Sequence record: OV696614
Source: Escherichia phage Cyrano
Length of the DNA: 64,000 nucleotides
Reading direction: 5' to 3' (one strand)
This document shows positions 2,050-49,700 of the stretch, one piece after another; within the stretch, counting starts at the first letter, position 1, and each line of letters starts with the position of its first letter. The notes under the pieces are model-generated. The model saw only the letters and a list, made by a program, of their open reading frames with translations, was not told the DNA's origin and did not search any database. The position numbers were made by a program, and so were the translations under genes.

Positions 2050-3624
2050 ATGGAATTGAACGACAAACAAATTAAGGATCTGGTGGCGCGACGCCACCCG
2101 GAATACGAAAAGAAAAAAGAACATTGGGACTTCCTCGCCAGCACTTACGCTGGCGGGCGTGGTTGGTTTACAGACAATATCTTTCGTTACTTTAAAGAGG
2201 GAGATCAGGAGTTTAAGGAGCGAGTTGAACGTGCTTATCGCTTCAACCACACTCGTGAGGTGGTAAACCTCATCAACAAATATCTCTTTAAAGAAGACAT
2301 TCATAGAAATATCGAAGAGGCACCAGAGCAGATCCGCAATTTCTGGAAACGTGCGACTCGCCAGAATGCCTCTATTGACTCATTTATGGCCGCTATTGAT
2401 TTGCAGTCGTCTATTTACGGTCGCATATGGGTTGTTGTCGATAGCACGATGAGTGGTGATGTTGAGTCAGTAGCTGACGAGAAAAAGAAAGATGCTCGCG
2501 CCTACGCCTACTGGATTTCACCTCAGCAAATGCTGGATGTGGCATGGGACGACGACGGGAATATGTTGTGGGCGTTAATTGTGGAAGTCGCTCGTGATGA
2601 CGCAGATCCTTTTACTTCTACAGGTCAGGAATACCAACGTTATCGTCTGTGGACACAAAACGAGTGGTATCTGTTCCGTGAGGAAGTGAAGAAGGGCGCT
2701 GGTGGAGCAGGTCGCCGTCAGGCAAAAGTTATTTTAGAGGATAGCGGTGAGCATAATCTCGGCGTAGTTCCTGTGTTTCCTGTTGATTGTATTGGAGAAA
2801 GTGAATCACCGTATTTCAGCCCATCGTTGATCGATGATATCGCTTATCTTGATCGTGCGGTTGCAAACTATCTGTCAAACCTTGATGCCATTATTCAGGA
2901 TCAGACATTTAGCCAGTTGGCTATACCGGTACAGTCGCTTTTACCTGGTGATGAAAACCACACTAAAGTGCTTGAAATGGGCACAAAGCGAGTCTTCACC
3001 TACGATTCTGAAGGTGGAAACCAGCCGTTTTATCTGTCACCAGACCCGAAACAAGCTCAGATGATCATCACTACGATTAAGACGGTGATTAACGAAATCT
3101 ACCATTCAGTTGGTGTAGCTGGTGAGCGAACGAAGCAGGACAACGCACAGGGAATCGATAATTCATCTGGTGCCGCAAAAATGTATGACTTCCAGCGTGT
3201 AAATAGCTTGCTTGTCACAAAAGCAGAGCGTCTGGAAAGGGCTGAACGCCAAATCATGCTACTGGTTGCGAAATGGATGGGGGTAGATCTGGACGAAGAC
3301 CACTCTTTAATTGCATATCCAGAAAGTTTCGATATTCGTGGCCTTACTGATGAATTTTCTGTTGCCGAGAAACTGTCATTACTTCAGGCACCGGACTCTG
3401 TACGTCGTCACCAGATGGAAATGCTTATTGAGAAGATTTTCCCGAACATTACTGAGGCGATGAAAAAGGAATTTGATAAAGATCTCTTGAATTTTCCTCC
3501 AAAAAATGATCTAAATACCCTTGAAAATAAGTCAGTACTTACTTATGATCGTGGTGCAGCCCAAGAAAGCGGGCAAGATCAACCCCGAGGGAATGGGGAC
3601 TCATCTACTCAAGAGAACGAGTGA
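2050..3624 (+). CDS. putative portal protein
   Basis: 524 aa, size and position between terminase and scaffold/capsid genes; RBS AAGG before ATG. Confidence 0.55.
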   Translation: MELNDKQIKDLVARRHPEYEKKKEHWDFLASTYAGGRGWFTDNIFRYFKEGDQEFKERVERAYRFNHTREVVNLINKYLFKEDIHRNIEEAPEQIRNFWKRATRQNASIDSFMAAIDLQSSIYGRIWVVVDSTMSGDVESVADEKKKDARAYAYWISPQQMLDVAWDDDGNMLWALIVEVARDDADPFTSTGQEYQRYRLWTQNEWYLFREEVKKGAGGAGRRQAKVILEDSGEHNLGVVPVFPVDCIGESESPYFSPSLIDDIAYLDRAVANYLSNLDAIIQDQTFSQLAIPVQSLLPGDENHTKVLEMGTKRVFTYDSEGGNQPFYLSPDPKQAQMIITTIKTVINEIYHSVGVAGERTKQDNAQGIDNSSGAAKMYDFQRVNSLLVTKAERLERAERQIMLLVAKWMGVDLDEDHSLIAYPESFDIRGLTDEFSVAEKLSLLQAPDSVRRHQMEMLIEKIFPNITEAMKKEFDKDLLNFPPKNDLNTLENKSVLTYDRGAAQESGQDQPRGNGDSSTQENE

Positions 3625-36111: not shown

Positions 36112-37430
36112 AAAAGTTGATCGCACTTAAGCATAAGCTGGACGAAATGAAAGCTATGGGAACCAATGCAAAAAAAGAGGCATTGGCCAACATGGATGAC
36201 TTTGAACAAAGCATGGTTTCATTGATGCTCAACCCTTTCATCCGTTTTGGGGTAAAGAAATACAAAGTGGCAGAGCCGCTTAGTGAGTCCGTCCCAAGTG
36301 ACGAAAAAGCCATTGATGTACTGAATAAGCTGGCCTCTCGCGAGCTGACGGGGAACGCAGCAATAGCAGCTGTTGAGTCTATCGTGGCGTCAATGTGCGC
36401 CGATGGGCAGGACGTGTTCCGTCGTTTCCTCTTAAAAGACCCGAAAGCAGGTGTTGGGATTAGCCTATGCAACAAGGTTTTTGAAAATCCCATTCCGAAA
36501 TTCGAGGTGCAGCTGGCGTCACCGTATAAAGAAAAAGGCGACAAATACCCCTTCAAGCCAAATCCTAAAGCAAAATGGCCGATGATTGGCAGTCTTAAGC
36601 TCGATGGTTTGCGAGTAATTTGCGAGGTTATTGTTGACGAGGAAGAGGTTAACTTCCTTTCTCGTACTGGTAATCCAATCACGTCTCTCGATCACCTAAA
36701 GCCAGCAATGCTCGAATTAGGCAAACTTTCAGGCCACAAACACATCTTCTTCGATGGTGAAGGAACAGCCGGTTCATTTAACCAGTCCGTATCTGCATTG
36801 CGCAAAAAGAACGTGCAGGCAATTGGCGCTATTTATCATGTTTTCGACTTCTTCCTACCGGAATGGCGGGCACAGGCTAAATCCAAAGAGTATGCAAAGA
36901 CAGGTATGAAGCTGAAAGAGCGCCTGGCTATTCTCGTGGCGTTGTTCAAAAACGATCGCAGTGAAGGCTACGCACAAGACATTCACCTGCATCCGTTCTA
37001 TATCATCCATAGCCACGAAGACTTCATCGAACGCTTCATGAAACGCCTGGACGATAACGAAGAAGGGGAGATGGGCAAAGATCCGAACTCTGTTTACGAG
37101 TTTAAACGTACCCGCAGCTGGTGGAAGTTAAAAGACGAAGATTCAGAAGATGGTGAAATTATCGATTTTGAGCCGGGCGATCCGGACTCTGGTTTTGCCA
37201 ACACGCTTGGAAAAATTGTTATTCGCCTTGAAAACGGTGTGATTGTTCGTGCGAGCGGCATTAAGCATAAATATCTGGACGAGATCTGGAACAACAAAGA
37301 GAAGTACCGTGGTCGTATTGTTGAGGTTCATTGTCACGAGAAAACACCGGATGGCAGCTTACGCCACCCCCGACTGAAATGGCCGCGTTGCTTACGCGAT
37401 ACAGAAGATCGAATCGGAGATAAAGAATGA
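36108..37430 (+). CDS. ATP-dependent DNA ligase
   Basis: 440 aa; nucleotidyltransferase motif I KLDGLRV (KxDGxR). Confidence 0.75.
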   Translation: MKKLIALKHKLDEMKAMGTNAKKEALANMDDFEQSMVSLMLNPFIRFGVKKYKVAEPLSESVPSDEKAIDVLNKLASRELTGNAAIAAVESIVASMCADGQDVFRRFLLKDPKAGVGISLCNKVFENPIPKFEVQLASPYKEKGDKYPFKPNPKAKWPMIGSLKLDGLRVICEVIVDEEEVNFLSRTGNPITSLDHLKPAMLELGKLSGHKHIFFDGEGTAGSFNQSVSALRKKNVQAIGAIYHVFDFFLPEWRAQAKSKEYAKTGMKLKERLAILVALFKNDRSEGYAQDIHLHPFYIIHSHEDFIERFMKRLDDNEEGEMGKDPNSVYEFKRTRSWWKLKDEDSEDGEIIDFEPGDPDSGFANTLGKIVIRLENGVIVRASGIKHKYLDEIWNNKEKYRGRIVEVHCHEKTPDGSLRHPRLKWPRCLRDTEDRIGDKE

Positions 37431-37606
37431 TGCTCGGCTGGATGATTGCATTTTTAGCAGTTGGTTTTTTCATAGGTATTGTGGTGATGTCCAGTTGCAT
37501 CAATGACTACATTAAAAGCGGTGTTATAGAAAGACGCGGTCGTATTTATCGCATTGTAGAAATAACCAACACCCTGAAGGAGATTAAGGATGATCGTATT
37601 AAGTAA
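37427..37606 (+). CDS. small single-pass membrane protein (59 aa), paralog of 37802..37954
   Basis: found by hand (below ORF-track cutoff); ATG overlaps ligase stop; TM helix then GRIYRIVEITN motif. Confidence 0.35.
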   Translation: MMLGWMIAFLAVGFFIGIVVMSSCINDYIKSGVIERRGRIYRIVEITNTLKEIKDDRIK

Positions 37607-37805
37607 ACGGGAGAAGGAAACGCTTCATGAAATCAGTAAGTGGCCGGAGTTCCCTGAGTACTGGAAGCCTAAAACGCGAGCTAAGTTAGAGCGTTTAGGG
37701 TTGGTTGCAAACGTTTCTGAAACGAAGTGTTCGGCCAACTACCAGTTAACTGATAAAGGGAAAGTATTGCTACAGCAATTAGTAGAATCAGGAGTGTTAA
37801 AATGA
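37590..37805 (+). CDS. hypothetical small protein
   Basis: 71 aa, overlaps neighbours at both ends. Confidence 0.35.
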   Translation: MIVLSKREKETLHEISKWPEFPEYWKPKTRAKLERLGLVANVSETKCSANYQLTDKGKVLLQQLVESGVLK

Positions 37806-37954
37806 TTCCATACATCTCATTAGCTTTTATGGGTGGCTTCCTTATCGGCTTCGGCATCTGTCGTGATTTAATTAAGCAGGAACTTAAAACCAAAACACTG
37901 TGCATCGGAAAGCGTGTGTATCGGGTAGTTCATGAAACAAAGGTTAGAAAATGA
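37802..37954 (+). CDS. small single-pass membrane protein (50 aa), paralog of 37427..37606
   Basis: found by hand; TM helix then KRVYRVVHETK motif; ATGA overlaps with flanking genes. Confidence 0.35.
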   Translation: MIPYISLAFMGGFLIGFGICRDLIKQELKTKTLCIGKRVYRVVHETKVRK

Positions 37955-38241
37955 GCAATTTAACTTCTTGGGACTGGTGGTTGGCCACCTATTTCTTAGC
38001 GGCCGGAGTCGCATTCGCCTTTTACGTAGGTCAGTTAGTCGTAAAACTGTTGCTGATTAAATTTGCTAGTCATAAACGTATCGATGATGGTCTGTGGCGT
38101 CTTGGCACCCTGGTGGAAACTCGCTACGGGCAACTTAAGGAGAACGAAACCATTACTATCCAGGCGAAACGATTCACTGCCACCATCACAAGAACACCTA
38201 GTCGTAGAGTGGCCTTGATCAAAAAAGTCACAACCGAATAA
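37951..38241 (+). CDS. small membrane protein
   Basis: 96 aa, N-terminal TM helix. Confidence 0.4.
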   Translation: MSNLTSWDWWLATYFLAAGVAFAFYVGQLVVKLLLIKFASHKRIDDGLWRLGTLVETRYGQLKENETITIQAKRFTATITRTPSRRVALIKKVTTE

Positions 38242-39020
38242 AAACATCATGATAAGTATTTACTTACTTATCTTTTATGTATAAGATGACTTTGTTTTCG
38301 TTGAGACGCGACTGTTTGAACTTAAATACAAGTGCAAACGAAGAAGTCTATCTGGCAGTAGCCTAATAAGCCAAACACCAGCGAGGTCAGTTTCCAGCCT
38401 CGTTACCGAAATGGGACACACTGAGCGAGTGTGATTGCAGAACGCAGGAGGGAACATTCATGTTCCCTCCGATGAAGTAACAGAATGGGCGGTTGGTATA
38501 TTTTCAACTCCATATGACTCCCGGATTCTTAGCCACTGACCGCCCATCCTGTTACGTCATTTTGTTCAATTATGTCGTTTATACTGGGTTAAAAAGCGGC
38601 GACGTAGCCCGGCTGGTATGGTTAGCCAGCACACAACGTTGAGGCCATTACATTTTTATCAATTCTAAGGTTCTATTCACAGAGATACCGGCGAGCGTTG
38701 ATATGTAACATGTTGGGCAAACATTCAATCGGAGTAGTGGCCTCAACGTTGTGAAGACGGGATTGTTGTGTAGGTTTAACCACTGTTGCCATTGGTGCCT
38801 GTTTTCACAACAAATGATTCCATACATCACATTGTATAAATTACAAAGTAGGTGCTGTCCTCAGAAACATCATCTACTTAAAGATTTTGCCTTCTACTAT
38901 TGAGCGAAGTCGAAAGCGTCTGGCACTAACGAAAAGTGCAAGTAGCGGTGCGTTTCCTGGCAGAAACTAAACCGTCGCGATTGGCACTGTTGAGTAAAAA
39001 AATACTGGCAGTGCCGAATT

Positions 39021-39095
39021 GATGGTGTAGCTCAGTGGTAGAGCAGTTGGCTGTTAACCAACTGGTCGGTGGTTCGAATCCACCCACCATCGCCA
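39021..39095 (+). tRNA. tRNA-Asn (anticodon GTT)
   Basis: manual fold: acceptor GATGGTG/CACCATC, D-arm GCTC..GAGC, anticodon loop CTGTTAA, T-arm GGTGG-TTCGAAT-CCACC, 3' GCCA. Confidence 0.85.
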
Positions 39096-39097
39096 AT

Positions 39098-39173
39098 GCC
39101 GGTTTAGCTCAGTTGGTAGAGCACCTGCCTTGTAAGCAGGATGTCAGCGGTTCGAATCCGTTAACCGGCACCA
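39098..39173 (+). tRNA. tRNA-Thr (anticodon TGT)
   Basis: manual fold: acceptor GCCGGTT/AACCGGC, anticodon stem CCTGC/GCAGG with loop CTTGTAA, T-loop TTCGAAT, 3' ACCA. Confidence 0.85.
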
Positions 39174-39181
39174 ACACAATT

Positions 39182-39268
39182 GGAGAGTAGAGAGCATGGT
39201 GCTCAAGCGGTCTTGAAAACCGTCCCATTGCGCAAGCGATGATGGTTCGATTCCATTACTCTCCGCCA
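39182..39268 (+). tRNA. tRNA-Ser (anticodon TGA), long variable arm
   Basis: 87 nt; acceptor GGAGAGT/ACTCTCC, anticodon loop CTTGAAA, long extra arm, T-loop TTCGATT, 3' GCCA. Confidence 0.8.
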
Positions 39269-39269
39269 G

Positions 39270-39349
39270 ACACAGCGTTGAGCGGTTTGGCCTTTTAATC
39301 AACTCGATTAAGACTCCGCTAACATAAACCAGACCGCTCAACGCTGTGA
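39270..39349 (+). repeat. long near-perfect inverted repeat immediately downstream of tRNA cluster
   Basis: CACAGCGTTGAGCGGTTTGG ... CCAGACCGCTCAACGCTGTG (19/20 complementary) separated by ~38 nt. Confidence 0.5.
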
Positions 39350-39424
39350 TAGACAATTACGGCAGACGTTCTTAACCATAGCTTGCTAACATCATAGCAA
39401 CACTTTTTTTTCAGCGCAAAATTC

Positions 39425-39447
39425 AAAGGGGCTTCGGCCCCTTTTTT
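39425..39447 (+). terminator. rho-independent terminator
   Basis: AAAGGGGC-ttcg-GCCCC followed by TTTTTT; a second T8 tract lies at 39403-39410. Confidence 0.6.
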
Positions 39448-39490
39448 GCAACTGAAAGAGTCAAGTCTACGAACTTTGTAGGAAGAAATA

Positions 39491-39841
39491 ATGACCAGCA
39501 AAGAGAACACACCACTAAAAGTCACCTCTGAACACATTGAACAACTCATTCAAAGTGAACATTATTTCACTGCATATGATGCCAGCCACGGGGATAACTT
39601 CATCTCTGTTTACAATTCAAAAACAGATATCGACAAAGGTCATGAGTCGTTAAAACTCTTAACGTTCTGCGTTATGGTTCTCAAAAATGGATATACCGTA
39701 ACGGGAAAATCTGCGTGCGTAAGACCAGAAATCTTCAACTTTGATGTTGGTCGCGAGTACGCTCGAAAAGATGCTGTCGATCAAATCTGGCCCCTGGAAG
39801 GCTATCTCCTGAAGCAAAAGTGGCATGAGGCAAAGCAATGA
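39491..39841 (+). CDS. hypothetical protein
   Basis: 116 aa, AGGAAG RBS. Confidence 0.4.
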   Translation: MTSKENTPLKVTSEHIEQLIQSEHYFTAYDASHGDNFISVYNSKTDIDKGHESLKLLTFCVMVLKNGYTVTGKSACVRPEIFNFDVGREYARKDAVDQIWPLEGYLLKQKWHEAKQ

Positions 39842-40083
39842 CGATCACTATCTACGGACGAGATAACTGCTCATACTGCAAACGTGCGGTCGAGCTGGCG
39901 AGGCAACTAAAGGGACATGGCTACGGTGATTATGAGTACATCGACATCACCACTGCCGGTATCGACAAGAAAAAACTAAGTGAAATTGTTGGTAAACCGG
40001 TAGAGACTATCCCCCAGGTGCTGATCGATGGCCAGCCGATTGGCGGATACACAGAGATGGCATCTTTCGTAAGTTTCTTATAA
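39838..40083 (+). CDS. glutaredoxin-like protein (NrdH/Grx family)
   Basis: 81 aa, CSYC redox motif near N-terminus. Confidence 0.7.
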   Translation: MTITIYGRDNCSYCKRAVELARQLKGHGYGDYEYIDITTAGIDKKKLSEIVGKPVETIPQVLIDGQPIGGYTEMASFVSFL

Positions 40084-40120
40084 GTAAAAGCCACATCTTT
40101 GTACATATAGTACATATAAC

Positions 40121-40145
40121 AAAAAAGGCCCATATGGGCCTTTTT
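40121..40145. terminator. bidirectional rho-independent terminator between convergent genes
   Basis: AAAAAA-GGCCCATATGGGCC-TTTTT. Confidence 0.75.
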
Positions 40146-40164
40146 CATAACTTCTAGCTAACCA

Positions 40165-40311
40165 CTACAGTGGCTTAAAGACCACTTCACCCTTGCGTTC
40201 AGCTTCAGCTTTAGCAGTCATGAATCGTTTGATCATTTCGACTTTGCTAGCATGGATAGTTTTAAAATCAATCTTCCCTTTGTTTTGGGTAGTGTTGTGT
40301 TCGTATCGCAT
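40165..40311 (-). CDS. possible small protein (48 aa)
   Basis: found by hand; GGAG RBS 6 nt upstream of ATG; overlaps 3' end of the 184 aa gene by 44 nt, so uncertain. Confidence 0.2.
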   Translation of the reverse strand: MRYEHNTTQNKGKIDFKTIHASKVEMIKRFMTAKAEAERKGEVVFKPL

Positions 40312-40822
40312 AGGAAGCTCCGTCATTTAAATAAGTTAGGCCACGCTCTTGTGTAAATCTCTTCACATATCTCTTGTATGTGGCCATCAGTTCTTCGCGT
40401 TCTGCCGCAAAGAATAAAATCTGTATGCCTTCATTGTCGGCAACTTTGAGCATTAAGTCAACTAAAGTACCGTAAAGGTATTGAAGTTCACCTAAAGTAA
40501 GATTAAAAGACCCTTCGGGTTTGGCAAATACGTTAATTGGCTCTTCCGCTCCAAGAGCGACATTCTGGAGCTGTTCTTGCTGCCTGTCAAGTTGAATCAT
40601 GTCCACAAAACTAACGACAGATACACACAACCCATAAACATCAGCACCTAACATATTATGCATAGTTTCTGCGGCAACAGGATCTAAAGAAGGAGGGCAA
40701 AAGACTAAACGGTATCTAGCCTTACGAGCTTCATTGCCAGAGAAAACAAAGTCTATATCTAAATATGACAGATCACCCGGCAATGAAGCCAAACCAGGTG
40801 TAACCAACTTATGCAAGTGCAT
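40268..40822 (-). CDS. hypothetical protein
   Basis: 184 aa, divergent from recombinase gene across an AT-rich region. Confidence 0.4.
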   Translation of the reverse strand: MHLHKLVTPGLASLPGDLSYLDIDFVFSGNEARKARYRLVFCPPSLDPVAAETMHNMLGADVYGLCVSVVSFVDMIQLDRQQEQLQNVALGAEEPINVFAKPEGSFNLTLGELQYLYGTLVDLMLKVADNEGIQILFFAAEREELMATYKRYVKRFTQERGLTYLNDGASYAIRTQHYPKQRED

Positions 40823-41089
40823 CTGTCTCGAATCCCTCTTTATTAGTATAAGTTGTCTTATTGTACCCTACCAAACGTTTATATGCATTGTTATGTATTA
40901 TTTTGATTTTCAATATTACCTCCTAGAACGAAGGGTAGATTTCAAAAAACGCATCCTCAATGATTCCATACCTACTATGTATGGAATCATTACTGAAAAT
41001 GAGTTACTTTTACTCTTGATCCTATAAGAATCTATGCCTAATATACTGTTTACTTATACAGTGCATCGGCGTAACTCGGTGATTGTCAT

Positions 41090-42193
41090 ATGAAAAATAG
41101 CTTTGACAGAGCACGCGCTGCGGAGAACACCTCAAAAGAGGCGATTGAGTATCTCGAAAGAGCATCTCAAATGCAGGCCGTTATGATCTCCCAGGTCAGC
41201 AATGACATGAGATTCTCGGACGCATTCATGTTATTCACTCGCTTATCTCTGCTGATAACAAGACGTCGGCCAGAGATCGCTGTTCATTGTATTTTGATAC
41301 ATGTTTTGCCGCACATTGCCGATGTAAAAGTAAGTGATATTAATAGGTTCATGGTGAACCAACTGGTCAACCCACTAATACTGGATGGCAAAATTGTTAT
41401 GGGTCGCCGCGTTTTCTCTCTGATGAAGCAGTTCCTCAGCTGGTGCGCCTTCCAGGGGATGATCGACGTGTCACCGTTAAACGATATGTCACTTAACAAA
41501 GTTGCCGGTGGCGCAAAGCCCACACCTCGCGAGCGGAAGCTAACCGACGCAGAGGTATGGGTGTTCTGGAATATATGGGACTACTTCAATGTGTGTGCTG
41601 GTACAAAATGGGCGGCCAGGCTATGTCTTGTATCCGCAAGACGACCTGACGAAGTACTGCGGGCTAAAAAAAGTGAGTTCAACCTCCAGCGTGGGGTTTG
41701 GAATCAAGGCAAGAGAAACAAATCAGCCCGTGAGCATTCTCTGCCTTTAAGCACATTAATGCGCACATGCATTGAAGAGTTATTCGAATATGGTAAAGGC
41801 AGCCAGTGGCTTGTGCCTTCGAATAAAAAAATCGGGAAAGATCTTCCGATGTCTAAAGTGGCAATAGCCCAGGCATTACGCCGTATCCTGGAACGACCAG
41901 AACTGATGGAGCTTGAGCCATTTACACCACGAGATTTGCGTCGTACTGCGCGTAGTTACTTCCCAGCATTAGGCATAAGCCAGGAGGTATCACGTAAAAT
42001 CATGAACCACAGTCTTGAGGGGATAGATCGGGTCTACGACCGGCACGATTATATGGACGAGATGCGAGACGCCTTAGAAAGTTTCTCGACGTACATCGCA
42101 TCAATCGTAGAGCAACCGGATTTAGACGAAATTGACCACAAATTTAAGGGAGATCGTCTATCAACAGAGCTTATTCGTGTAAATTTTTCATAG
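41090..42193 (+). CDS. tyrosine recombinase / integrase family protein
   Basis: 367 aa; C-terminal catalytic region with R..R and H....Y spacing (PRDLRRTARSY ... NHSLEGIDRVYDRH) typical of tyrosine recombinases. Confidence 0.65.
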   Translation: MKNSFDRARAAENTSKEAIEYLERASQMQAVMISQVSNDMRFSDAFMLFTRLSLLITRRRPEIAVHCILIHVLPHIADVKVSDINRFMVNQLVNPLILDGKIVMGRRVFSLMKQFLSWCAFQGMIDVSPLNDMSLNKVAGGAKPTPRERKLTDAEVWVFWNIWDYFNVCAGTKWAARLCLVSARRPDEVLRAKKSEFNLQRGVWNQGKRNKSAREHSLPLSTLMRTCIEELFEYGKGSQWLVPSNKKIGKDLPMSKVAIAQALRRILERPELMELEPFTPRDLRRTARSYFPALGISQEVSRKIMNHSLEGIDRVYDRHDYMDEMRDALESFSTYIASIVEQPDLDEIDHKFKGDRLSTELIRVNFS

Positions 42194-46782: not shown

Positions 46783-49700
46783 CTTCTCACTTGGGGAGTC
46801 GGCTCTAAAAGCAGAAAACGCGGTGAAGATTGCCAGAGAAGCTGGCTACACCGCTGTAATTTCAGCAGATAGCATGAATATTGCGAGTGTTATTCCACTA
46901 CAACGTGCCGCTGGTGACGACATGGCGGTTATTTGTGGTGTGAAACTAAATATCGTTGATGATCCCACATACGAGCACCGGGCTAAACTTGCTAAAGAAT
47001 CTATGAGATGTATGGAATCATTAGAGCGGGGACGTAACTACTCGTTTACCGCTCTAATTAAAAATGAGCAAGGATATCGCGACATCTGCGAACTAATGAC
47101 GGCGGCCAACACACGAGAACAGTTCTACTTTGTACCGCGTCTCTCGCTCGAACAGTTGGTTTCTACATATGCCAAAGGCAACATCATCCTGCTTACTTCC
47201 GACATCGGTAGCGTGTTCCAACGCAACGATTTTGCAAAAATCATAAGCACACTGATTACAGCGGGTGGAAAAGACAACTTCTATAGTGTGGTTTATCCGC
47301 ACCCTACCCCATTCTACGACCAGATTAACGTCCGGGCGATGAAAGTCGCCAGCGCATTGAAAATAGAGCCAGTGGCGTTCTATCCCGCTTATTACGAATC
47401 GATCGACGATGCAGACATTAAAGACATTGCGCACATGGTTACGAACAACATCAAAATCGACCAGCCGCATCGTCTGCGTATCCCCCACCAGCGAGATAAC
47501 GCCATCAATGGTCGTCGCCATCTCCTTGAGGCGCTTAAAGCCTTCTCCGTTCGCATGGATGTGCCGGTAACAGCTGCAATGGCCTCAACAACGCAGGACT
47601 CCATTATCGATGCCTGCACATGGCGCTGGCATGAATTGCCACCAGCACTGCCCAAGATGGCAGACGACGAACCTGCAACGCTGATGAAACTGGCTGTTGC
47701 AGGGCTGCGTAAACGTCTTACCACAAAAGAGTTTGGATACACACCACCTGCTTCTGAGAACAGGGTTTATGTTGAGCGGCTAAAGTACGAAATGGACACG
47801 CTGACTCGCCTGGGATTCTGTGGTTACTTCCTGATGGTACGCGATCTGATGAATCACAGCCGTGAAACTGGCATTCCTGTCGGGCCTGGTCGTGGTTCCT
47901 CTGCCGGTTCTCTGGTGGCGTGGTGCATAGGCATAACCAACGTCGACCCAATCCGTCACGGTCTTCTGTTTGAGCGTTTCATCAACCCTGAGCGTCTCGA
48001 CTTGCCGGATGCGGACTTGGACTTCAGCCAGGCACGTCGCCATGAGGTGATCGAGTATCTGAATGAACGCTACGGCGAAGATTACGTTGCAGGCATTCCG
48101 AACTTCACCTATCTGGGCGCGGCATCTGCACTACGTGACACCGCTCGTATTTATGGTGTGGAGTCCGCAGATATGGCGGTATCAAAAGAACTGAAGAACG
48201 TCGAGGATGATAGCCTTCCATTGGAAGAGCTGCGCGAACAACTGGCAAGTCTCGACAAATACGCAACAAAATATCCTGATGCATTCAATGCAGCCTGCAA
48301 GTTACAAAGCCTTATGCGTGGCTTTGGTAGACATGCGGCAGGGATGATCGTAGCAGGTGTTCCTCTGACAGAACGTACACCGGTTGAGCGCCGTGGTGAC
48401 GCGCGTTGTATCGCATTTGACAAGCGTTACTGCGAGGCTATGGGCCTAATTAAGCTGGACGTGCTTGGCCTGGCAACTCTCGATTTGCTCGATAGTGCAA
48501 AACGCTACATCAAAGAGAGTACCGGGGAAGACATCAATCTCGACGCTATCCCACTGGACGATCGCAAGGTTCTGGATGGGTTCGCTGCAGGGTACACGCA
48601 GGGCGTATTCCAGCTGGAGTCCGGCCCCATGCGTAAGTTGCTTAAAGATCTGGGCGGTGGCATCGAGCCAATGAGCTTCAAGACCGTTGTCGCCACGACC
48701 GCACTCTTCCGACCAGGCCCGATCCAATCCGGCATGTTGGACGACTATGTCTCCGTGGCCAAAGGCTTCATGGCTCCACATTCAATTCATCCGCGTCTTG
48801 AGGAAGTCACCCGGGAGACTAATGGTGTTTTGCTCTATCAGGAACAAATCATGCAAAGTTCCCGAGTACTTGCCGGGTTCTCTATGGCCGAAGCAGACGC
48901 TCTGCGTTCCGCTATCGGTAAAAAGAACATGGATAAGATGAAAGCGATCGGCAGCGATTTTGTAGAACGAGCACAAGCAGGCTGGGTGACACTGTCACTC
49001 AAAAATGGAGGTACTGTAGAGGTTCACAAACACGCAAAACTGGATTGCTCAGACGGTAAGCGTAGAAGCTACAGCGAGGCTATTAGTGACGGCATAGACT
49101 ACGTGGAGATCGTCTCTGAACAAGAAGGTCTCAGTAAGGAAAAAGCCCAAGAAATATGGGACGCCTTTGAGAAGTTCGGTGGATATGCCTTCAACAAATC
49201 ACACAGTGTTGCTTATTCTTTAATCAGTTATCAGTCTATGTGGCTAAAGACGCACTACCCTGCTGAGTTCTTCGCAGCTGCGCTCACCATTCTGGGCGAG
49301 GATAAGCATCAGGGGCTGGTGAAGGATGCGCTGACCTATGGCATTCGCGTATTGCCACCAGACGTTAATGTGTCATCTAACCGAATTGAGATCCGCACAC
49401 TCGAAGACGGCAGTCAGGCACTGTATGCGCCATTCTCTGCTGTGAAAGGCTGTTCTGAAAATGGTTGTCAGGCAATTATGCGTGCGCGTGAGAAAGTTGG
49501 TGGCAAATTCGAGTCAGTGGCACAATTCGATGAAGCGGTCGAGAAGCGTGCATGTAACAGTCGTGTACGCGAGTCGCTTCATAAAGTAGGGGCTTTTGCG
49601 TCAATTGAGCCAGGCAGTCTGCCAGCAACTGATCCTGAACGACTGCGCGACCAGGCTGAGCTGATGGGCAATCTCATCATTGACGCTGTTAAAGCATCAC

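What the first reader, a model, noticed from the sequence alone, without database searches (positions are those of the whole stretch)
38245..39020. About 750 bp gene-free region with multiple conserved hairpins upstream of the tRNA cluster: candidate structured ncRNA or cis-acting site
Between the last small membrane protein gene and tRNA-Asn there is no credible ORF (only 60 aa shadow ORFs), but there are several strong local structures: perfect 11 bp stem GGAGGGAACAT-tc-ATGTTCCCTCC (38447-38470), ATGGGCGGT..ACCGCCCAT pairing (38486-38546), and CACAACGTTGAGGCC..GGCCTCAACGTTGTG (38629-38754). A region of this size with stable stems and no coding capacity could be a regulatory RNA (for example an immunity antisense RNA), a tRNA operon leader, or a packaging/replication site.
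Basis: seen in the sequence. Interest (0 to 1): 0.45.

Follow-up and report, generated by a model that had tools for sequence, protein, structure and literature searches.

The report
Phage RNA mimicking and targeting tmRNA
The "empty" 750 bp upstream of the phage tRNA genes encodes a large folded RNA whose front end carries a tmRNA-like peptide-tag template plus a stretch complementary to the host's own tmRNA, so it may let phages tamper with the bacterial ribosome-rescue system.

Summary
The window is phage-plasmid Cyrano (pLF82, SSU5-like). Region 38242-39020 has no conserved ORF. It folds far better than shuffles on the + strand, and its length and architecture are kept in about 70 relatives. 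Of 124 consensus pairs, 22 show compensatory changes, and G·U outnumbers A·C 196 to 6, so it is a + strand RNA. A conserved weak promoter, three tRNAs and a terminator make one transcription unit.

The new result concerns the first 146 nt (38291-38436). They belong to an unannotated RNA module that BLAST matches in 404 phage records and 258 of 5426 complete E. coli genomes. The phages include Felix O1-like, Kuttervirus, HK620 and Klebsiella siphophages. The module holds a 10-codon frame, AN..[YF]LAVA plus stop, with no start codon. It resembles the tmRNA tag template, and its variation falls on third codon positions. No tRNA-like domain is present. The 5' leader is antisense to host ssrA around its resume codon; this signal is strong in other lineages and weak here.

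My best reading, which is inferred, is an RNA that pairs with host tmRNA to replace or block its tag template. The SSU5-specific 3' 580 nt remain unexplained.

The parts
38259..38287 (+). Conserved weak sigma-70-like promoter: TTTACT (38259-38264), 17 nt, TAAGAT (38282-38287). The inferred start is about 38293-38295.
   Evidence: Both hexamers are invariant or nearly so in 14 representatives. The consensus scan did not call it, because it matches only 8 of 12 positions. In other lineages a TTGACA-17-TATAGT or TAGATT promoter sits at the same distance from GTTTTCG.
38291..38436 (+). Core module shared with many phages: leader, tag frame, three hairpins.
   Evidence: Covariance model R1 matches here only in the window (166.5 bits). 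It finds one full-length copy per related locus, including the untrained FO1a and Cba120. BLAST finds 404 phage records and 258 of 5426 E. coli genomes.
38294..38318 (+). 5' leader with two boxes complementary to host tmRNA. GTTTTCGTT (38294-38302) pairs with ssrA ACGAAAAC. GCGACTGTTTG (38308-38318) pairs with ssrA AAAAUAGUCGC.
   Evidence: The duplex with E. coli ssrA nt 81-105 is -26.3 kcal/mol, p=0.035 against shuffled leaders. The duplex with the element's own tag region is -14.0. The boxes are invariant at 8/9 and 9/11 positions and the spacer at 0/5. The same ssrA site is targeted in all 11-12 lineages tested.
38334..38369 (+). tmRNA-like tag reading frame: GCA AAC GAA GAA GTC TAT CTG GCA GTA GCC TAA TAA = ANEEVYLAVA**. 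There is no start codon.
   Evidence: Rfam aligns it to the tag region of beta_tmRNA and tmRNA_permuted. Among 18 variants the variable sites fall on codon position 1/2/3 as 2/2/9 of 10, p=4e-4. The E. coli ssrA template was verified.
38353..38373 (+). Small hairpin (TGGC/GCCA) with the end of the tag frame and the stop codons in its loop.
   Evidence: Consensus fold; G-C to G-U changes only.
38381..38403 (+). Hairpin GCGAGGT / GCCTCGT with a conserved UUCC loop motif.
   Evidence: It is invariant in SSU5-like elements. Across lineages it reads GCGAGG/CCUCGU, GUGAGG/CCUCAU, GCAAGG/CCUUGU and GCAGGG/CCCUGU.
38417..38433 (+). Hairpin CACACT / AGTGTG. In other lineages it is stem 1 of an H-type pseudoknot.
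   Evidence: 100% of cells are paired, with 2 compensatory pairs across lineages. The pseudoknot stem 2 was read from the sequences.
38438..38922 (+). Long-range helix CAGAACG (38438-38444) / CGTCTG (38917-38922) that closes the SSU5-specific 3' domain.
   Evidence: Six pairs are 100% kept. One G-C to A-U double change occurs in the Klebsiella clade.
38447..38470 (+).
   Evidence: 6 of 9 pairs show compensatory changes, and the loop length varies.
38471..38561 (+). Helix of about 25 bp with a variable apical loop.
   Evidence: 25 pairs, 99.1% of cells paired, 3 compensatory.
38570..38630 (+). Two conserved hairpins: 38570-38579/38598-38607 and 38612-38617/38625-38630.
   Evidence: 99-100% of cells are paired. 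Several G·U pairs are invariant on the + strand, and one pair is compensatory.
38632..38753 (+). Long hairpin of the CACAAC...GTTGTG type, with a variable interior.
   Evidence: 4 compensatory pairs. The same basal motif recurs at 39271-39348 and between tRNAs in relatives.
38748..38811 (+). Hairpin GTTGTGAAGACGGG / CCTGTTTTCACAAC. Its 5' arm overlaps the 3' arm of the previous hairpin.
   Evidence: 5 compensatory pairs.
38813..38828 (+). AATGATTCCATACATC, an invariant copy of a dispersed motif that is probably a DNA-level protein-binding site.
   Evidence: 5 copies in the window against 0.5 expected. One pair forms a palindrome between CYRAN_43 and the integrase gene. The motif is invariant in relatives.
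38917..39015 (+). 3' end of the RNA: conserved hairpins 38923-38939 and 38945-38978, and a clade-specific terminal hairpin 38983-39015.
   Evidence: The terminal hairpin is replaced by an unrelated module in the Klebsiella clade and is absent in SSU5.
39021..39268 (+). tRNA-Asn(GTT), tRNA-Thr(TGT) and tRNA-Ser(TGA), co-oriented. RNase P cleavage at 39021 would release the RNA's 3' end (inferred).
   Evidence: ARAGORN and Rfam.
39271..39348 (+). Hairpin CACAGCGTTGAG.../...CTCAACGCTGTG, the same family as 38632-38753.
   Evidence: It is conserved in relatives.
39418..39437 (+). Intrinsic terminator GGGGC-TTCG-GCCCC-TTTTTT that ends the unit.
   Evidence: Read from the sequence. The scan's tail rule missed it.

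Best explanation
The region is the gene for a structured non-coding RNA of about 0.73 kb.

Transcription unit. The RNA is transcribed on the + strand from a conserved weak promoter at 38259-38287. It forms the 5' part of a unit RNA - tRNA-Asn - tRNA-Thr - tRNA-Ser - hairpin - terminator. RNase P processing of tRNA-Asn probably releases it.

What is shown. The first 146 nt are a member of a widespread, undescribed phage RNA module with three parts.
- A 5' leader that is complementary to the host tmRNA (ssrA) across its resume-codon region.
- A 10-codon reading frame without a start codon that resembles the tmRNA tag template (ANEEVYLAVA against host ANDENYALAA). Its variation follows a codon pattern, so the peptide appears to be made.
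- Conserved hairpins.
The RNA has no tRNA-like domain of its own.

Inferred mechanism. The leader pairs with host tmRNA. This masks the host resume codon and tethers the phage template to the host's alanyl-tRNA-like domain and SmpB, giving a hybrid 'two-piece tmRNA'. Stalled ribosomes then add the phage tag instead of the host degradation tag, or at the least host tagging is blocked.

The 3' 580 nt are specific to SSU5-like elements. They are a covariation-supported scaffold of unknown role.
For: RNA on the + strand.
- Fold z = -12.5 on the + strand against -6.3 on the - strand.
- The 124-pair consensus has 98.7% of cells paired. 22 pairs are compensatory against 10.3 +/- 2.1 in shuffles (0 of 500) and 1-5 in slid controls.
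- G·U cells number 196 and A·C cells 6.

Transcription unit.
- The promoter is conserved.
- tRNAs follow on the same strand and a terminator lies at 39418-39437.
- The ORF annotated over the tRNA-Ser/hairpin part (CYRAN_40) is expressed 15-fold above the prophage background in LF82 lysogens (PMC9928086 supplement).

Module family.
- Model R1 finds one full-length copy per locus, including loci it was not trained on.
- BLAST finds 404 phage records and 258 of 5426 E. coli genomes, none annotated.
- In other phages the module also lies in non-coding DNA. It sits next to tRNAs, or between pR'/qut and the late terminator in HK620.

Tag frame.
- Rfam aligns it to tmRNA tag regions.
- ARAGORN reads ANDNVFLAVA as a tmRNA tag in Mijalis.
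- Variable sites fall on codon positions 1/2/3 as 2/2/9 of 10, p=4e-4.
- Six codons vary only synonymously.
- Upstream indels break any longer frame.

Antisense leader.
- The best duplex always maps to the same ssrA site, at -23 to -38 kcal/mol. p<=0.01 in 7 lineages and 0.035 here.
- These duplexes are 10-20 kcal/mol better than with the element's own tag region.
- The leaders are collinear with the reverse complement of ssrA 53-107, z=4.4-7.9 in nine lineages.
- The boxes are invariant while the spacer varies.
Against: - No direct transcript data exist for 38242-39020. The published table has no feature there.
- In the window's own SSU5-like clade the antisense signal is weak. A Watson-Crick-only alignment gives z=1.2-1.5, and duplex p is 0.035-0.12.
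- Lineages are related, so agreement of the target site is not independent evidence.
- Nucleotide similarity of the tag frame to E. coli ssrA is not significant on its own: score 21 against 19.5 +/- 2.0. Rfam scores are far below gathering: 14-17 bits against 47-84.
- Translation of a template tethered in trans to tmRNA has no precedent. The antiparallel geometry puts the phage template on the opposite end of the helix from the host's.
- Nothing here explains the 580-nt 3' domain.
- Only E. coli ssrA was tested as a target.
Confidence: 0.45

Rival explanations
1. It is a large structured RNA that serves the tRNA operon as a leader or processing scaffold. Alternatively it is a GOLLD/ROOL-like phage RNA of unknown function. 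On this reading the tmRNA-like frame and the ssrA complementarity are relics of an old capture of an ssrA fragment and have no present role in trans-translation.
For: - It lies directly 5' of the tRNAs on the same strand.
- It is large and ornate, with long-range helices.
- GOLLD and ROOL are also phage RNAs found next to tRNA islands (PMC12286853, PMC5737381).
- Related hairpin modules fill the spacers between tRNAs in relatives.
- The antisense signal is weak in this clade.
Against: - Third-position variation with synonymous changes inside the SSU5-like clade itself implies ongoing selection on the peptide.
- The leader boxes are invariant while the spacer is free.
- The module occurs without tRNAs in HK620.
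- No Rfam match to GOLLD or ROOL at E<=10.
Confidence: 0.2
2. It is purely an antisense inhibitor. The leader pairs with host tmRNA and blocks or destabilises it, and the tag-like frame is never translated.
For: - The leader is complementary to the resume region in all lineages.
- The complementary boxes sit at the extreme 5' end of the transcript, as in many seed-bearing sRNAs.
- Partial tmRNA mimics are thought to inhibit tmRNA, for example the TLD-only RNA of phage DS6A (PMC4131195).
Against: It does not explain the codon periodicity, the fixed 10-codon length, the conserved AN..[YF]LAVA peptide or the in-frame stops TAA, TAG and TGA.
Confidence: 0.15
3. It is a self-sufficient phage tmRNA, one-piece or two-piece, whose tRNA-like domain is too divergent to recognise.
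For: - The tag frame is under peptide selection.
- ARAGORN calls a permuted tmRNA in Felix O1-like phages, and genome notes report it as ssrA (PMC4319497).
- Some lineages have T-arm-like hairpins or mini tRNA-like elements next to the module.
- Mycobacteriophages encode real tmRNAs.
Against: - ARAGORN finds nothing in the window even at an 80% threshold. There is no T-loop motif and no CCA-ending acceptor in 38242-39020.
- No partner exists for the invariant GUUUUCG as an acceptor strand.
- The Mijalis call uses a fragment inside tRNA-Lys and an acceptor without G3·U70. It has no homologue here.
- The curated tmRNA survey lists no enterobacterial phage ssrA.
Confidence: 0.12
4. It is a DNA-level cis-acting site, such as an origin, a pac site or an operator cluster, rather than an RNA.
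For: - An invariant copy of the dispersed motif AATGATTCCATACATC lies inside it.
- There are many inverted repeats.
Against: - G·U to A·C is 196:6, and invariant G·U pairs would be C·A on the other strand.
- The fold is far stronger on the + strand.
- A promoter and a terminator frame the unit.
- The core recurs in phages with unrelated replication and packaging systems.
Confidence: 0.04
5. It holds one or more small protein genes, or a decayed gene.
For: - ORFs of 50-60 aa exist.
- An antisense ORF of 52-83 aa recurs at about the same place in relatives.
Against: - No Pfam match.
- The variable sites of the tag region fall on codon position 2 of the antisense ORF and of the +1 frame (reasoned).
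- Indels are not multiples of three.
- Stems show compensatory changes.
Confidence: 0.02

Closest known systems
tmRNA (ssrA), e.g. E. coli ssrA; Rfam tmRNA clan
   Same: - A short reading frame without a start codon. It begins GCA AAC GA. and is preceded by an A/U-rich stretch.
- It has 10 codons and ends in hydrophobic residues and stop codons placed in a small hairpin.
- The peptide AN(D/E)..(Y/F)LAVA resembles ANDENYALAA.
- One H-type pseudoknot follows the frame in several phage lineages.
   Different: - There is no tRNA-like domain: no acceptor stem, T-arm or CCA.
- No PK1-PK4 set was identified here.
- Rfam scores are far below gathering.
- The tag ends in AVA, not LAA.
- The region 5' of the frame is antisense to tmRNA rather than homologous to it.
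- A 580-nt extra domain is attached.
Two-piece (permuted) tmRNA of alpha-proteobacteria and others
   Same: The concept of a coding piece and an acceptor piece held together only by base pairing. The hybrid model proposed here would be an inter-species version of it.
   Different: In known cases both pieces come from one gene of the same organism, and the coding piece supplies the acceptor 5' strand. Here the acceptor part would be the host's intact tmRNA, and pairing would be at its resume region.
Phage-encoded tmRNAs and tmRNA fragments (mycobacteriophage Bxz1 group, Bacillus phage G, DS6A TLD-only RNA)
   Same: A phage-borne RNA related to tmRNA, often near tRNA clusters. DS6A shows that a partial tmRNA can be kept by a phage, possibly as an inhibitor.
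   Different: Those carry a tRNA-like domain. This one carries only the template part plus an antisense leader. The curated survey lists no enterobacterial phage case (PMC4131195).
GOLLD and ROOL large phage RNAs
   Same: Large (0.6-0.8 kb), ornate RNAs, phage-borne, adjacent to tRNA genes and probably co-transcribed with them, with no known function.
   Different: There is no sequence or structure match (Rfam, E<=10). The distribution is narrow (Enterobacterales). Here a recognisable functional module sits at the 5' end.
Trans-acting base-pairing sRNAs and phage antisense RNAs (P1/P7 c4, P4 CI)
   Same: A conserved complementary segment at the 5' end of the transcript. c4 and CI are also matured by RNase P (established knowledge).
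   Different: The target would be a host non-coding RNA (tmRNA), not a phage mRNA. The size is about ten times larger. There is no Rfam C4 match.
Phage T4 tRNA-cluster stable RNAs (species 1 and 2; established knowledge)
   Same: Non-tRNA stable RNAs encoded within, and processed from, a phage tRNA operon.
   Different: The T4 RNAs are about 120-140 nt, and no tmRNA-like frame is known for them. No homology was tested here.

Membership tests
tmRNA (ssrA) | Tag reading frame entered at a resume codon without a start codon, ending in a short hydrophobic C-terminus and a stop. | tested here: met
   38334-38369 = ANEEVYLAVA**. It aligns to the tag region of two Rfam tmRNA models. The codon-position pattern of variation gives p=4e-4. 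There is no in-frame start, and upstream indels shift the frame.
tmRNA (ssrA) | tRNA-like domain: acceptor stem with G3·U70, T-arm and 3' CCA. | tested here: not met
   ARAGORN finds no tmRNA at default or at 80% thresholds. There is no T-loop motif in 38242-39020. No acceptor partner was found.
tmRNA (ssrA) | Match to a curated covariance model at the gathering score. | tested here: not met
   Best scores are 14.4-17.3 bits against 84 (beta_tmRNA), and 14-22.7 against 47 (tmRNA_permuted).
tmRNA (ssrA) | Pseudoknots flanking the tag frame. | tested here: inconclusive
   Sequences of HK620, VLCpiS13b, Mijalis and P46FS4 suggest one H-type pseudoknot after the frame, with a covarying stem 2 (read). 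In the window only stem 1 (38417-38433) is seen.
tmRNA (ssrA) | Alanylation, SmpB binding, tagging activity. | not testable with these tools
   Needs biochemistry or proteomics.
GOLLD / ROOL large phage RNAs | Match to the Rfam models. | tested here: not met
   No hit at E<=10 in 37000-40500 or in 38230-39030.
GOLLD / ROOL large phage RNAs | Large ornate phage RNA next to tRNA genes. | tested here: met
   About 730 nt with 124 consensus pairs and long-range helices, directly 5' of three tRNAs in a phage-plasmid. This is a resemblance, not homology.
GOLLD / ROOL large phage RNAs | Homo-oligomeric cage assembly. | not testable with these tools
   Needs cryo-EM or biophysics.
Trans-acting antisense RNA against host tmRNA (proposed) | Conserved complementarity to one defined target site that exceeds chance. 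| tested here: inconclusive
   For the family the feature is met: the same ssrA site, p<=0.01 in 7 lineages, z 4.4-7.9. For the window's clade it is weak: -26.3 kcal/mol, p=0.035, z=1.4. Only E. coli ssrA was tested.
P1 c4 / P4 CI-type immunity antisense RNA | Rfam C4 model match; complementarity to a phage immunity transcript. | tested here: not met
   No Rfam match. The element is 2-3 kb from the repressor/integrase region, and no such complementarity was seen.
tRNA operon leader | Same strand as the tRNAs, a promoter upstream, and no terminator before the tRNAs. | tested here: met
   The promoter is conserved. There is no terminator-like site between 38287 and 39021. The terminator lies after tRNA-Ser. 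Co-transcription itself was not tested.

The most novel reading that the evidence does not exclude
A family of phage RNAs, found in SSU5-like phage-plasmids, Felix O1-like phages, Kuttervirus, HK620 and Klebsiella siphophages, reprograms bacterial ribosome rescue. Their 5' leader anneals to the host tmRNA at its resume codon. Their own template is then decoded in its place. Proteins from stalled ribosomes therefore receive a phage-specified ...YLAVA tag rather than the host degradation tag. This would be a trans-assembled host-phage 'two-piece tmRNA'.
Probability: 0.3. Interest if true: 0.95.

Novelty: new variant of a known kind. Interest (0 to 1): 0.8.

Why it matters
SSU5-like phage-plasmids are common in clinical Enterobacterales. 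The core was found in 4.8% of complete E. coli genomes and the full region in 772 PLSDB plasmids. A truncated copy sits beside the F1 capsule operon of Yersinia pestis pMT1. The core module also occurs in widely used therapeutic and typing phages (Felix O1 group, Kuttervirus), yet it is unannotated and absent from Rfam.

If the RNA acts on tmRNA, it would be the first phage factor shown to target trans-translation through RNA pairing. That pathway is needed by several phages and is linked to toxin and anticodon-nuclease defences. It would also explain why ARAGORN reports odd 'tmRNA' genes in these phages, and it would provide a natural example of template swapping on tmRNA.

Even on the conservative reading, this is a new large structured phage RNA next to tRNAs, with a testable 5' module. 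That could help with the open question of what GOLLD/ROOL-type RNAs do.

Tried and rejected
1. Transcript evidence.
- The Y. pestis sRNA-seq candidates on pMT1 (sR082, sR083) map elsewhere.
- The LF82 expression table has no feature in the region.
- One literature query on pHCM2 was uninformative.

2. Search for a tRNA-like domain.
- ARAGORN at lowered thresholds and a T-loop regex found nothing.
- A search for an acceptor partner of GUUUUCG with NCCA found nothing.
- A 7-bp match at 38909-38915 is not conserved in SSU5 (read).
- The permuted tRNA-like piece that ARAGORN used in Mijalis has no homologue here.

3. Direct similarity to E. coli ssrA. The best local alignment picks the tag region, but its score is not above shuffles. 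The tmRNA link therefore rests on the Rfam alignments, the peptide, the frame architecture and the codon periodicity.

4. Is the leader homologous to the tmRNA 5' region in the sense orientation? Rejected, z<=2.9.

5. Does the leader pair with its own tag region? This is much weaker than with the host, and it does not covary with the variable codons.

6. Alignment problems.
- The MAFFT and CM alignments mis-register the hairpin 38381-38403 across lineages. The cross-lineage count therefore understates it. I checked it sequence by sequence instead.

7. Scan misses.
- The consensus promoter scan found no site. The promoter call rests on conservation.
- The terminator scan missed 39418-39437.

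8. Scans that found only close relatives.
- The genome-contig scan with the ligase found only Kluyvera relatives.
- An exact-pattern viral scan found only SSU5-like contigs.

9. An integron attC-like reading of the CACAAC/GTTGTG hairpins was considered and dropped. The core sites do not fit RYYYAAC/GTTRRRY.
Full report
**What the window is.** BLAST places the region in SSU5-like phage-plasmids. The gene coordinates in the published annotation table of phage-plasmid Cyrano coincide exactly with the ORFs of this window. Cyrano is pLF82 of adherent-invasive E. coli LF82. Examples are CYRAN_39 at 37951-38241, CYRAN_41 at 39491-39841, the integrase at 41090-42193 and the repressor at 42574-42188 (PMC9928086 supplement; ORFs). 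The finding lies between the 96-aa gene CYRAN_39 and tRNA-Asn. Nothing is annotated there.

**Observation check.**
- 38447-38457/38460-38470 is a perfect 11-bp stem.
- 38472-38493/38539-38560 has 22-nt arms at 91% complementarity.
- 38632-38651/38734-38753 has 20-nt arms at 95%.

The 776 nt fold with z = -12.5 on the + strand and -6.3 on the - strand. The ORFs are at most 60 aa, have no Pfam match above threshold, and differ in place and length among relatives.

**It is an RNA read from the + strand.** I collected about 160 related loci. The intergenic length stays at 666-790 nt, mostly 717-790, while the neighbouring 96-aa protein falls to 60% identity.

An alignment of 14 representatives at under 97% identity shows blocks of invariant sequence alternating with stems that change on both sides. 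Counts for the RNAalifold consensus:
- 124 pairs, with 98.7% of cells paired.
- 22 pairs with compensatory changes, against 10.3 +/- 2.1 in column shuffles (0 of 500 reach it).
- 1-5 such pairs when partners are slid by 1-3 columns.

G·U or U·G cells number 196 and A·C or C·A cells 6. Six pairs are G·U in at least 90% of sequences. These would be mismatches on the other strand. This argues against a DNA-level site and against a - strand transcript.

**Transcription unit.** TTTACT-17 nt-TAAGAT at 38259-38287 is invariant or nearly so. It matches the consensus at only 8 of 12 positions, which is too weak for the scan. No terminator-like site precedes the tRNAs. tRNA-Asn, tRNA-Thr and tRNA-Ser follow on the same strand. 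A conserved hairpin follows at 39271-39348, then GGGGC-TTCG-GCCCC-T6 at 39418-39437.

In LF82 lysogens the spurious ORF laid over the tRNA-Ser/hairpin part (CYRAN_40, 39144-39356) is expressed 15-fold above the prophage background. So the unit is probably active in lysogeny. Co-transcription of the RNA itself is inferred, not shown.

**The 5' core is a widespread module.** With the tRNAs left out, BLAST of the region hits 316 phage records. The 153-nt core alone hits 404. Most hits cover only window positions about 38282-38436. The phages hit include:
- Felix O1-like myoviruses (Felixounavirus, Mooglevirus).
- Kuttervirus (Cba120) and Agtrevirus.
- HK620 and HK633.
- 46-57 kb Klebsiella siphophages.
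- Aeromonas phage pIS4-A and E. coli phage swi2.

In every case examined the match lies in non-coding DNA.
- In Mijalis it is inside the 24-tRNA array.
- In VLCpiS13b, pIS4-A, swi2 and Carvaje it is upstream of tRNAs.
- In HK620 it lies between the late promoter pR'/qut and the late terminator.

A covariance model built from 23 sequences finds exactly one full-length copy per locus. This includes FO1a (115 bits) and Cba120 (97 bits), which were not in the training set. In the window it matches only 38291-38436.

The core is present in 258 of 5426 complete E. coli genomes. 256 places are on plasmids and 14 on chromosomes, and none is annotated.

**A tmRNA-like tag frame.** The only Rfam signals in the region are weak partial matches to beta_tmRNA and tmRNA_permuted. 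Their alignments cover the tag-template part of those models:
- Window: ...AAAUACAAGU | GCA AAC GAA GAA GUC UAU CUG GCA GUA GCC UAA UAA = ANEEVYLAVA**.
- E. coli ssrA: GCA AAC GAC GAA AAC UAC GCU UUA GCA GCU UAA UAA = ANDENYALAA**.

I verified the E. coli template in 5412 of 5426 genomes, where it is annotated as ssrA. ARAGORN reads the homologous frame of Mijalis as a tmRNA tag, ANDNVFLAVA.

Across the loci there are 18 distinct 33-nt versions. All have 10 codons and encode AN[DE][END][VTQMA][YF]LAVA. FO1a has the same 10-codon frame ending in TGA, read by eye, so TAA, TAG and TGA all occur as stops. Variable sites fall on codon positions 1, 2 and 3 in 2, 2 and 9 of 10 codons. The hypergeometric p is 4e-4, or 1.2e-3 allowing any phase. 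Six codons vary only synonymously, and some of these changes occur within the SSU5-like clade.

There is no in-frame start codon or Shine-Dalgarno sequence. One- and two-base indels just upstream shift any longer frame. In the +1 frame and in the recurrent antisense ORF, the variable sites fall on codon position 2. The peptide therefore appears to be under selection, which implies decoding that begins without initiation, as in trans-translation.

On nucleotide similarity alone, the match to E. coli ssrA is not above shuffles.

**Conserved hairpins of the core.** The hairpin at 38381-38403 is invariant in SSU5-like elements. Across lineages it reads GCGAGG/CCUCGU, GUGAGG/CCUCAU, GCAAGG/CCUUGU and GCAGGG/CCCUGU. 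The hairpin at 38417-38433 keeps 100% pairing, with two compensatory positions. The automatic alignments mis-register the first hairpin between lineages, so understates it.

**No tRNA-like domain.** ARAGORN finds no tmRNA in the window, even at an 80% threshold. No T-loop motif lies in the region. A search for an acceptor partner of the invariant GUUUUCG failed. The 'permuted tmRNA' that ARAGORN builds in Mijalis borrows a fragment inside tRNA-Lys and a tRNA-like piece without G3·U70. That piece has no homologue here.

Genome notes on Felix O1-like phages repeat the ARAGORN call as 'ssrA' (PMC4319497). The curated tmRNA survey lists phage ssrA only for mycobacteriophages and Bacillus phage G (PMC4131195).

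**The leader is antisense to host tmRNA.** In lineages with their own promoter, the transcript starts a few bases before the invariant GUUUUCG. The leader, from that point to the tag frame, forms its best duplex with E. coli ssrA at the same place in all 11 lineages tested. That place is nt about 67-107: the 3' strand of PK1, the A-rich linker with UAGUC, the resume codon and codons 1-5.
- Duplex energies are -23 to -38 kcal/mol. Against shuffled leaders p<=0.01 in seven lineages, 0.035 for the window and 0.12 for SSU5.
- The duplex with host ssrA is 10-20 kcal/mol better than with the element's own tag region.
- A Watson-Crick-only local alignment of the leader to the reverse complement of the whole ssrA gives z = 4.4-7.9 in nine non-SSU5 lineages, always at ssrA 53-107. 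It gives z = 1.2-1.5 for SSU5-like leaders at 82-104.
- Alignment in the sense orientation is not significant.

In the window two boxes carry the pairing. GTTTTCGTT (38294-38302) pairs with ACGAAAAC. GCGACTGTTTG (38308-38318) pairs with AAAAUAGUCGC. They are invariant at 8/9 and 9/11 positions in the SSU5-like set, while the 5-nt spacer is invariant at 0/5.

**Mechanism.** These points are shown:
- A conserved, structured + strand RNA.
- A core module shared across phage families.
- A tag-like frame with coding-type variation.
- No tRNA-like domain.
- Leader complementarity to host ssrA.

What follows is inferred. The RNA pairs with host tmRNA. It either blocks the host template or presents its own, with the host tmRNA and SmpB supplying entry into stalled ribosomes. 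This reading accounts for a translated frame without a start codon or a tRNA-like domain.

The tag keeps the N-terminal AANDxxY-like part and ends in AVA instead of LAA. From published work on ssrA tag variants used to destabilise GFP (my recollection, not checked here), endings such as LVA still act as degradation signals. So the consequence for protein fate is open.

Weak points are the modest signal in the window's own clade, the lack of precedent, the helix geometry, and the absence of expression or proteomic data.

**The 3' domain.** Positions 38437-39020 are specific to SSU5-like elements. They are enclosed by a long-range helix, 38438-38444/38917-38922, with one compensatory change. They hold five covariation-supported hairpins. 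Two of these, 38632-38753 and 38748-38811, are of the CACAAC...GTTGTG type. The same type occurs at 39271-39348, and in several copies between tRNA-Thr and tRNA-Ser in relatives and after the core in HK620, Carvaje and VLCpiS13b.

The function of this domain is unknown. By position and size it recalls GOLLD and ROOL, but no Rfam model matches it.

In Y. pestis pMT1 only the first 500 nt or so remain, and caf1R follows.

**Novelty.** No Rfam family covers the element. PGAP does not annotate it. No paper in the library mentions the ...LAVA tags or a phage RNA directed at tmRNA. I file it as a new variant of a known kind: tmRNA-related, but failing the defining tRNA-like domain. The hybrid-tmRNA reading is a separate, more novel case.

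Noticed in passing
window 37801-37816(+), 38813-38828(+), 40959-40974(+)/40976-40991(-), 47007-47022(-): The 16-mer AATGATTCCATACATC occurs 5 times against 0.5 expected. One pair forms a 13-bp palindrome between the highly expressed CYRAN_43 and the integrase/repressor genes. Single copies overlap the start of the 50-aa gene and lie inside the RNA gene, where the nucleotides are invariant. A palindromic copy is also present in relative L038. It looks like a dispersed asymmetric operator, as with P1 C1 sites. The binding protein is unknown.
   Followed up: partly
window 38632-38753 and 39271-39348; L003 7160-7480; L013 7160-7828; L183 2610-2830: A family of long hairpins has the conserved base CACA(A/G)C...G(T/C)TGTG. 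In relatives they often read CACAAC-AGGTAAGAGCA...TGCTCTTNCC-GTTGTG. They fill the spacers of phage tRNA clusters, and some contain T-arm-like hairpins. No Rfam match.
   Followed up: partly
loci L003-L036 against window 39095-39182: Close relatives carry tRNA-Tyr between tRNA-Asn and tRNA-Thr. They also carry 200-670 nt of hairpin modules between tRNA-Thr and tRNA-Ser. In the window those two tRNAs are 8 nt apart, so the tRNA cluster is a hot spot of module gain and loss.
   Followed up: partly
window 40268-40822 (-): CYRAN_43, a 184-aa protein with no Pfam match, is reported as the most highly expressed Cyrano gene in lysogens, 723-fold above the prophage background (PMC9928086). It sits next to the operator-like palindrome.
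   Followed up: no
L178 (Y. pestis plasmid pG8786, a pMT1 relative) 2505-3007: The plague plasmid keeps the promoter, the core module and the first 500 nt or so of the RNA. The F1 capsule regulator caf1R follows directly, so the caf1 locus replaced the 3' part and the tRNAs.
   Followed up: partly
L183 (HK620) 2457-2830: In HK620 the module lies between pR'/qut and the late terminator tQ. It would therefore be part of the short constitutive late-leader transcript, the counterpart of lambda 6S RNA.
   Followed up: no
L187 (Cba120) 1336-1410 and 1411-1535; L182 (Mijalis) about 2478-2545: There are unannotated tRNA-like elements near the module. Cba120 has a mini tRNA-like RNA, AUGGGAG...GAAGGUUCGAGUCCUUC-CUCCAAU-C-CCA, with a G3·A70 mismatch, and a second larger one. 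Mijalis has a permuted arrangement: T-arm, acceptor 3' strand and CCA, then 4 nt later the acceptor 5' strand and a D-arm.
   Followed up: partly
window 38394-38417 against 39222-39245: A conserved single-stranded stretch of the core (CGAAAUGGGAC) is complementary in 10 of 11 positions to the variable-arm region of the phage tRNA-Ser. SSU5 lacks that tRNA, so this is probably chance.
   Followed up: no
window 37802-37954 and relatives: The 50-aa membrane-protein gene starts with ATGATTCCATACATC in all relatives, with no synonymous change, although the rest of the protein diverges. This implies a nucleotide-level constraint on its first five codons, which are part of the motif above.
   Followed up: partly
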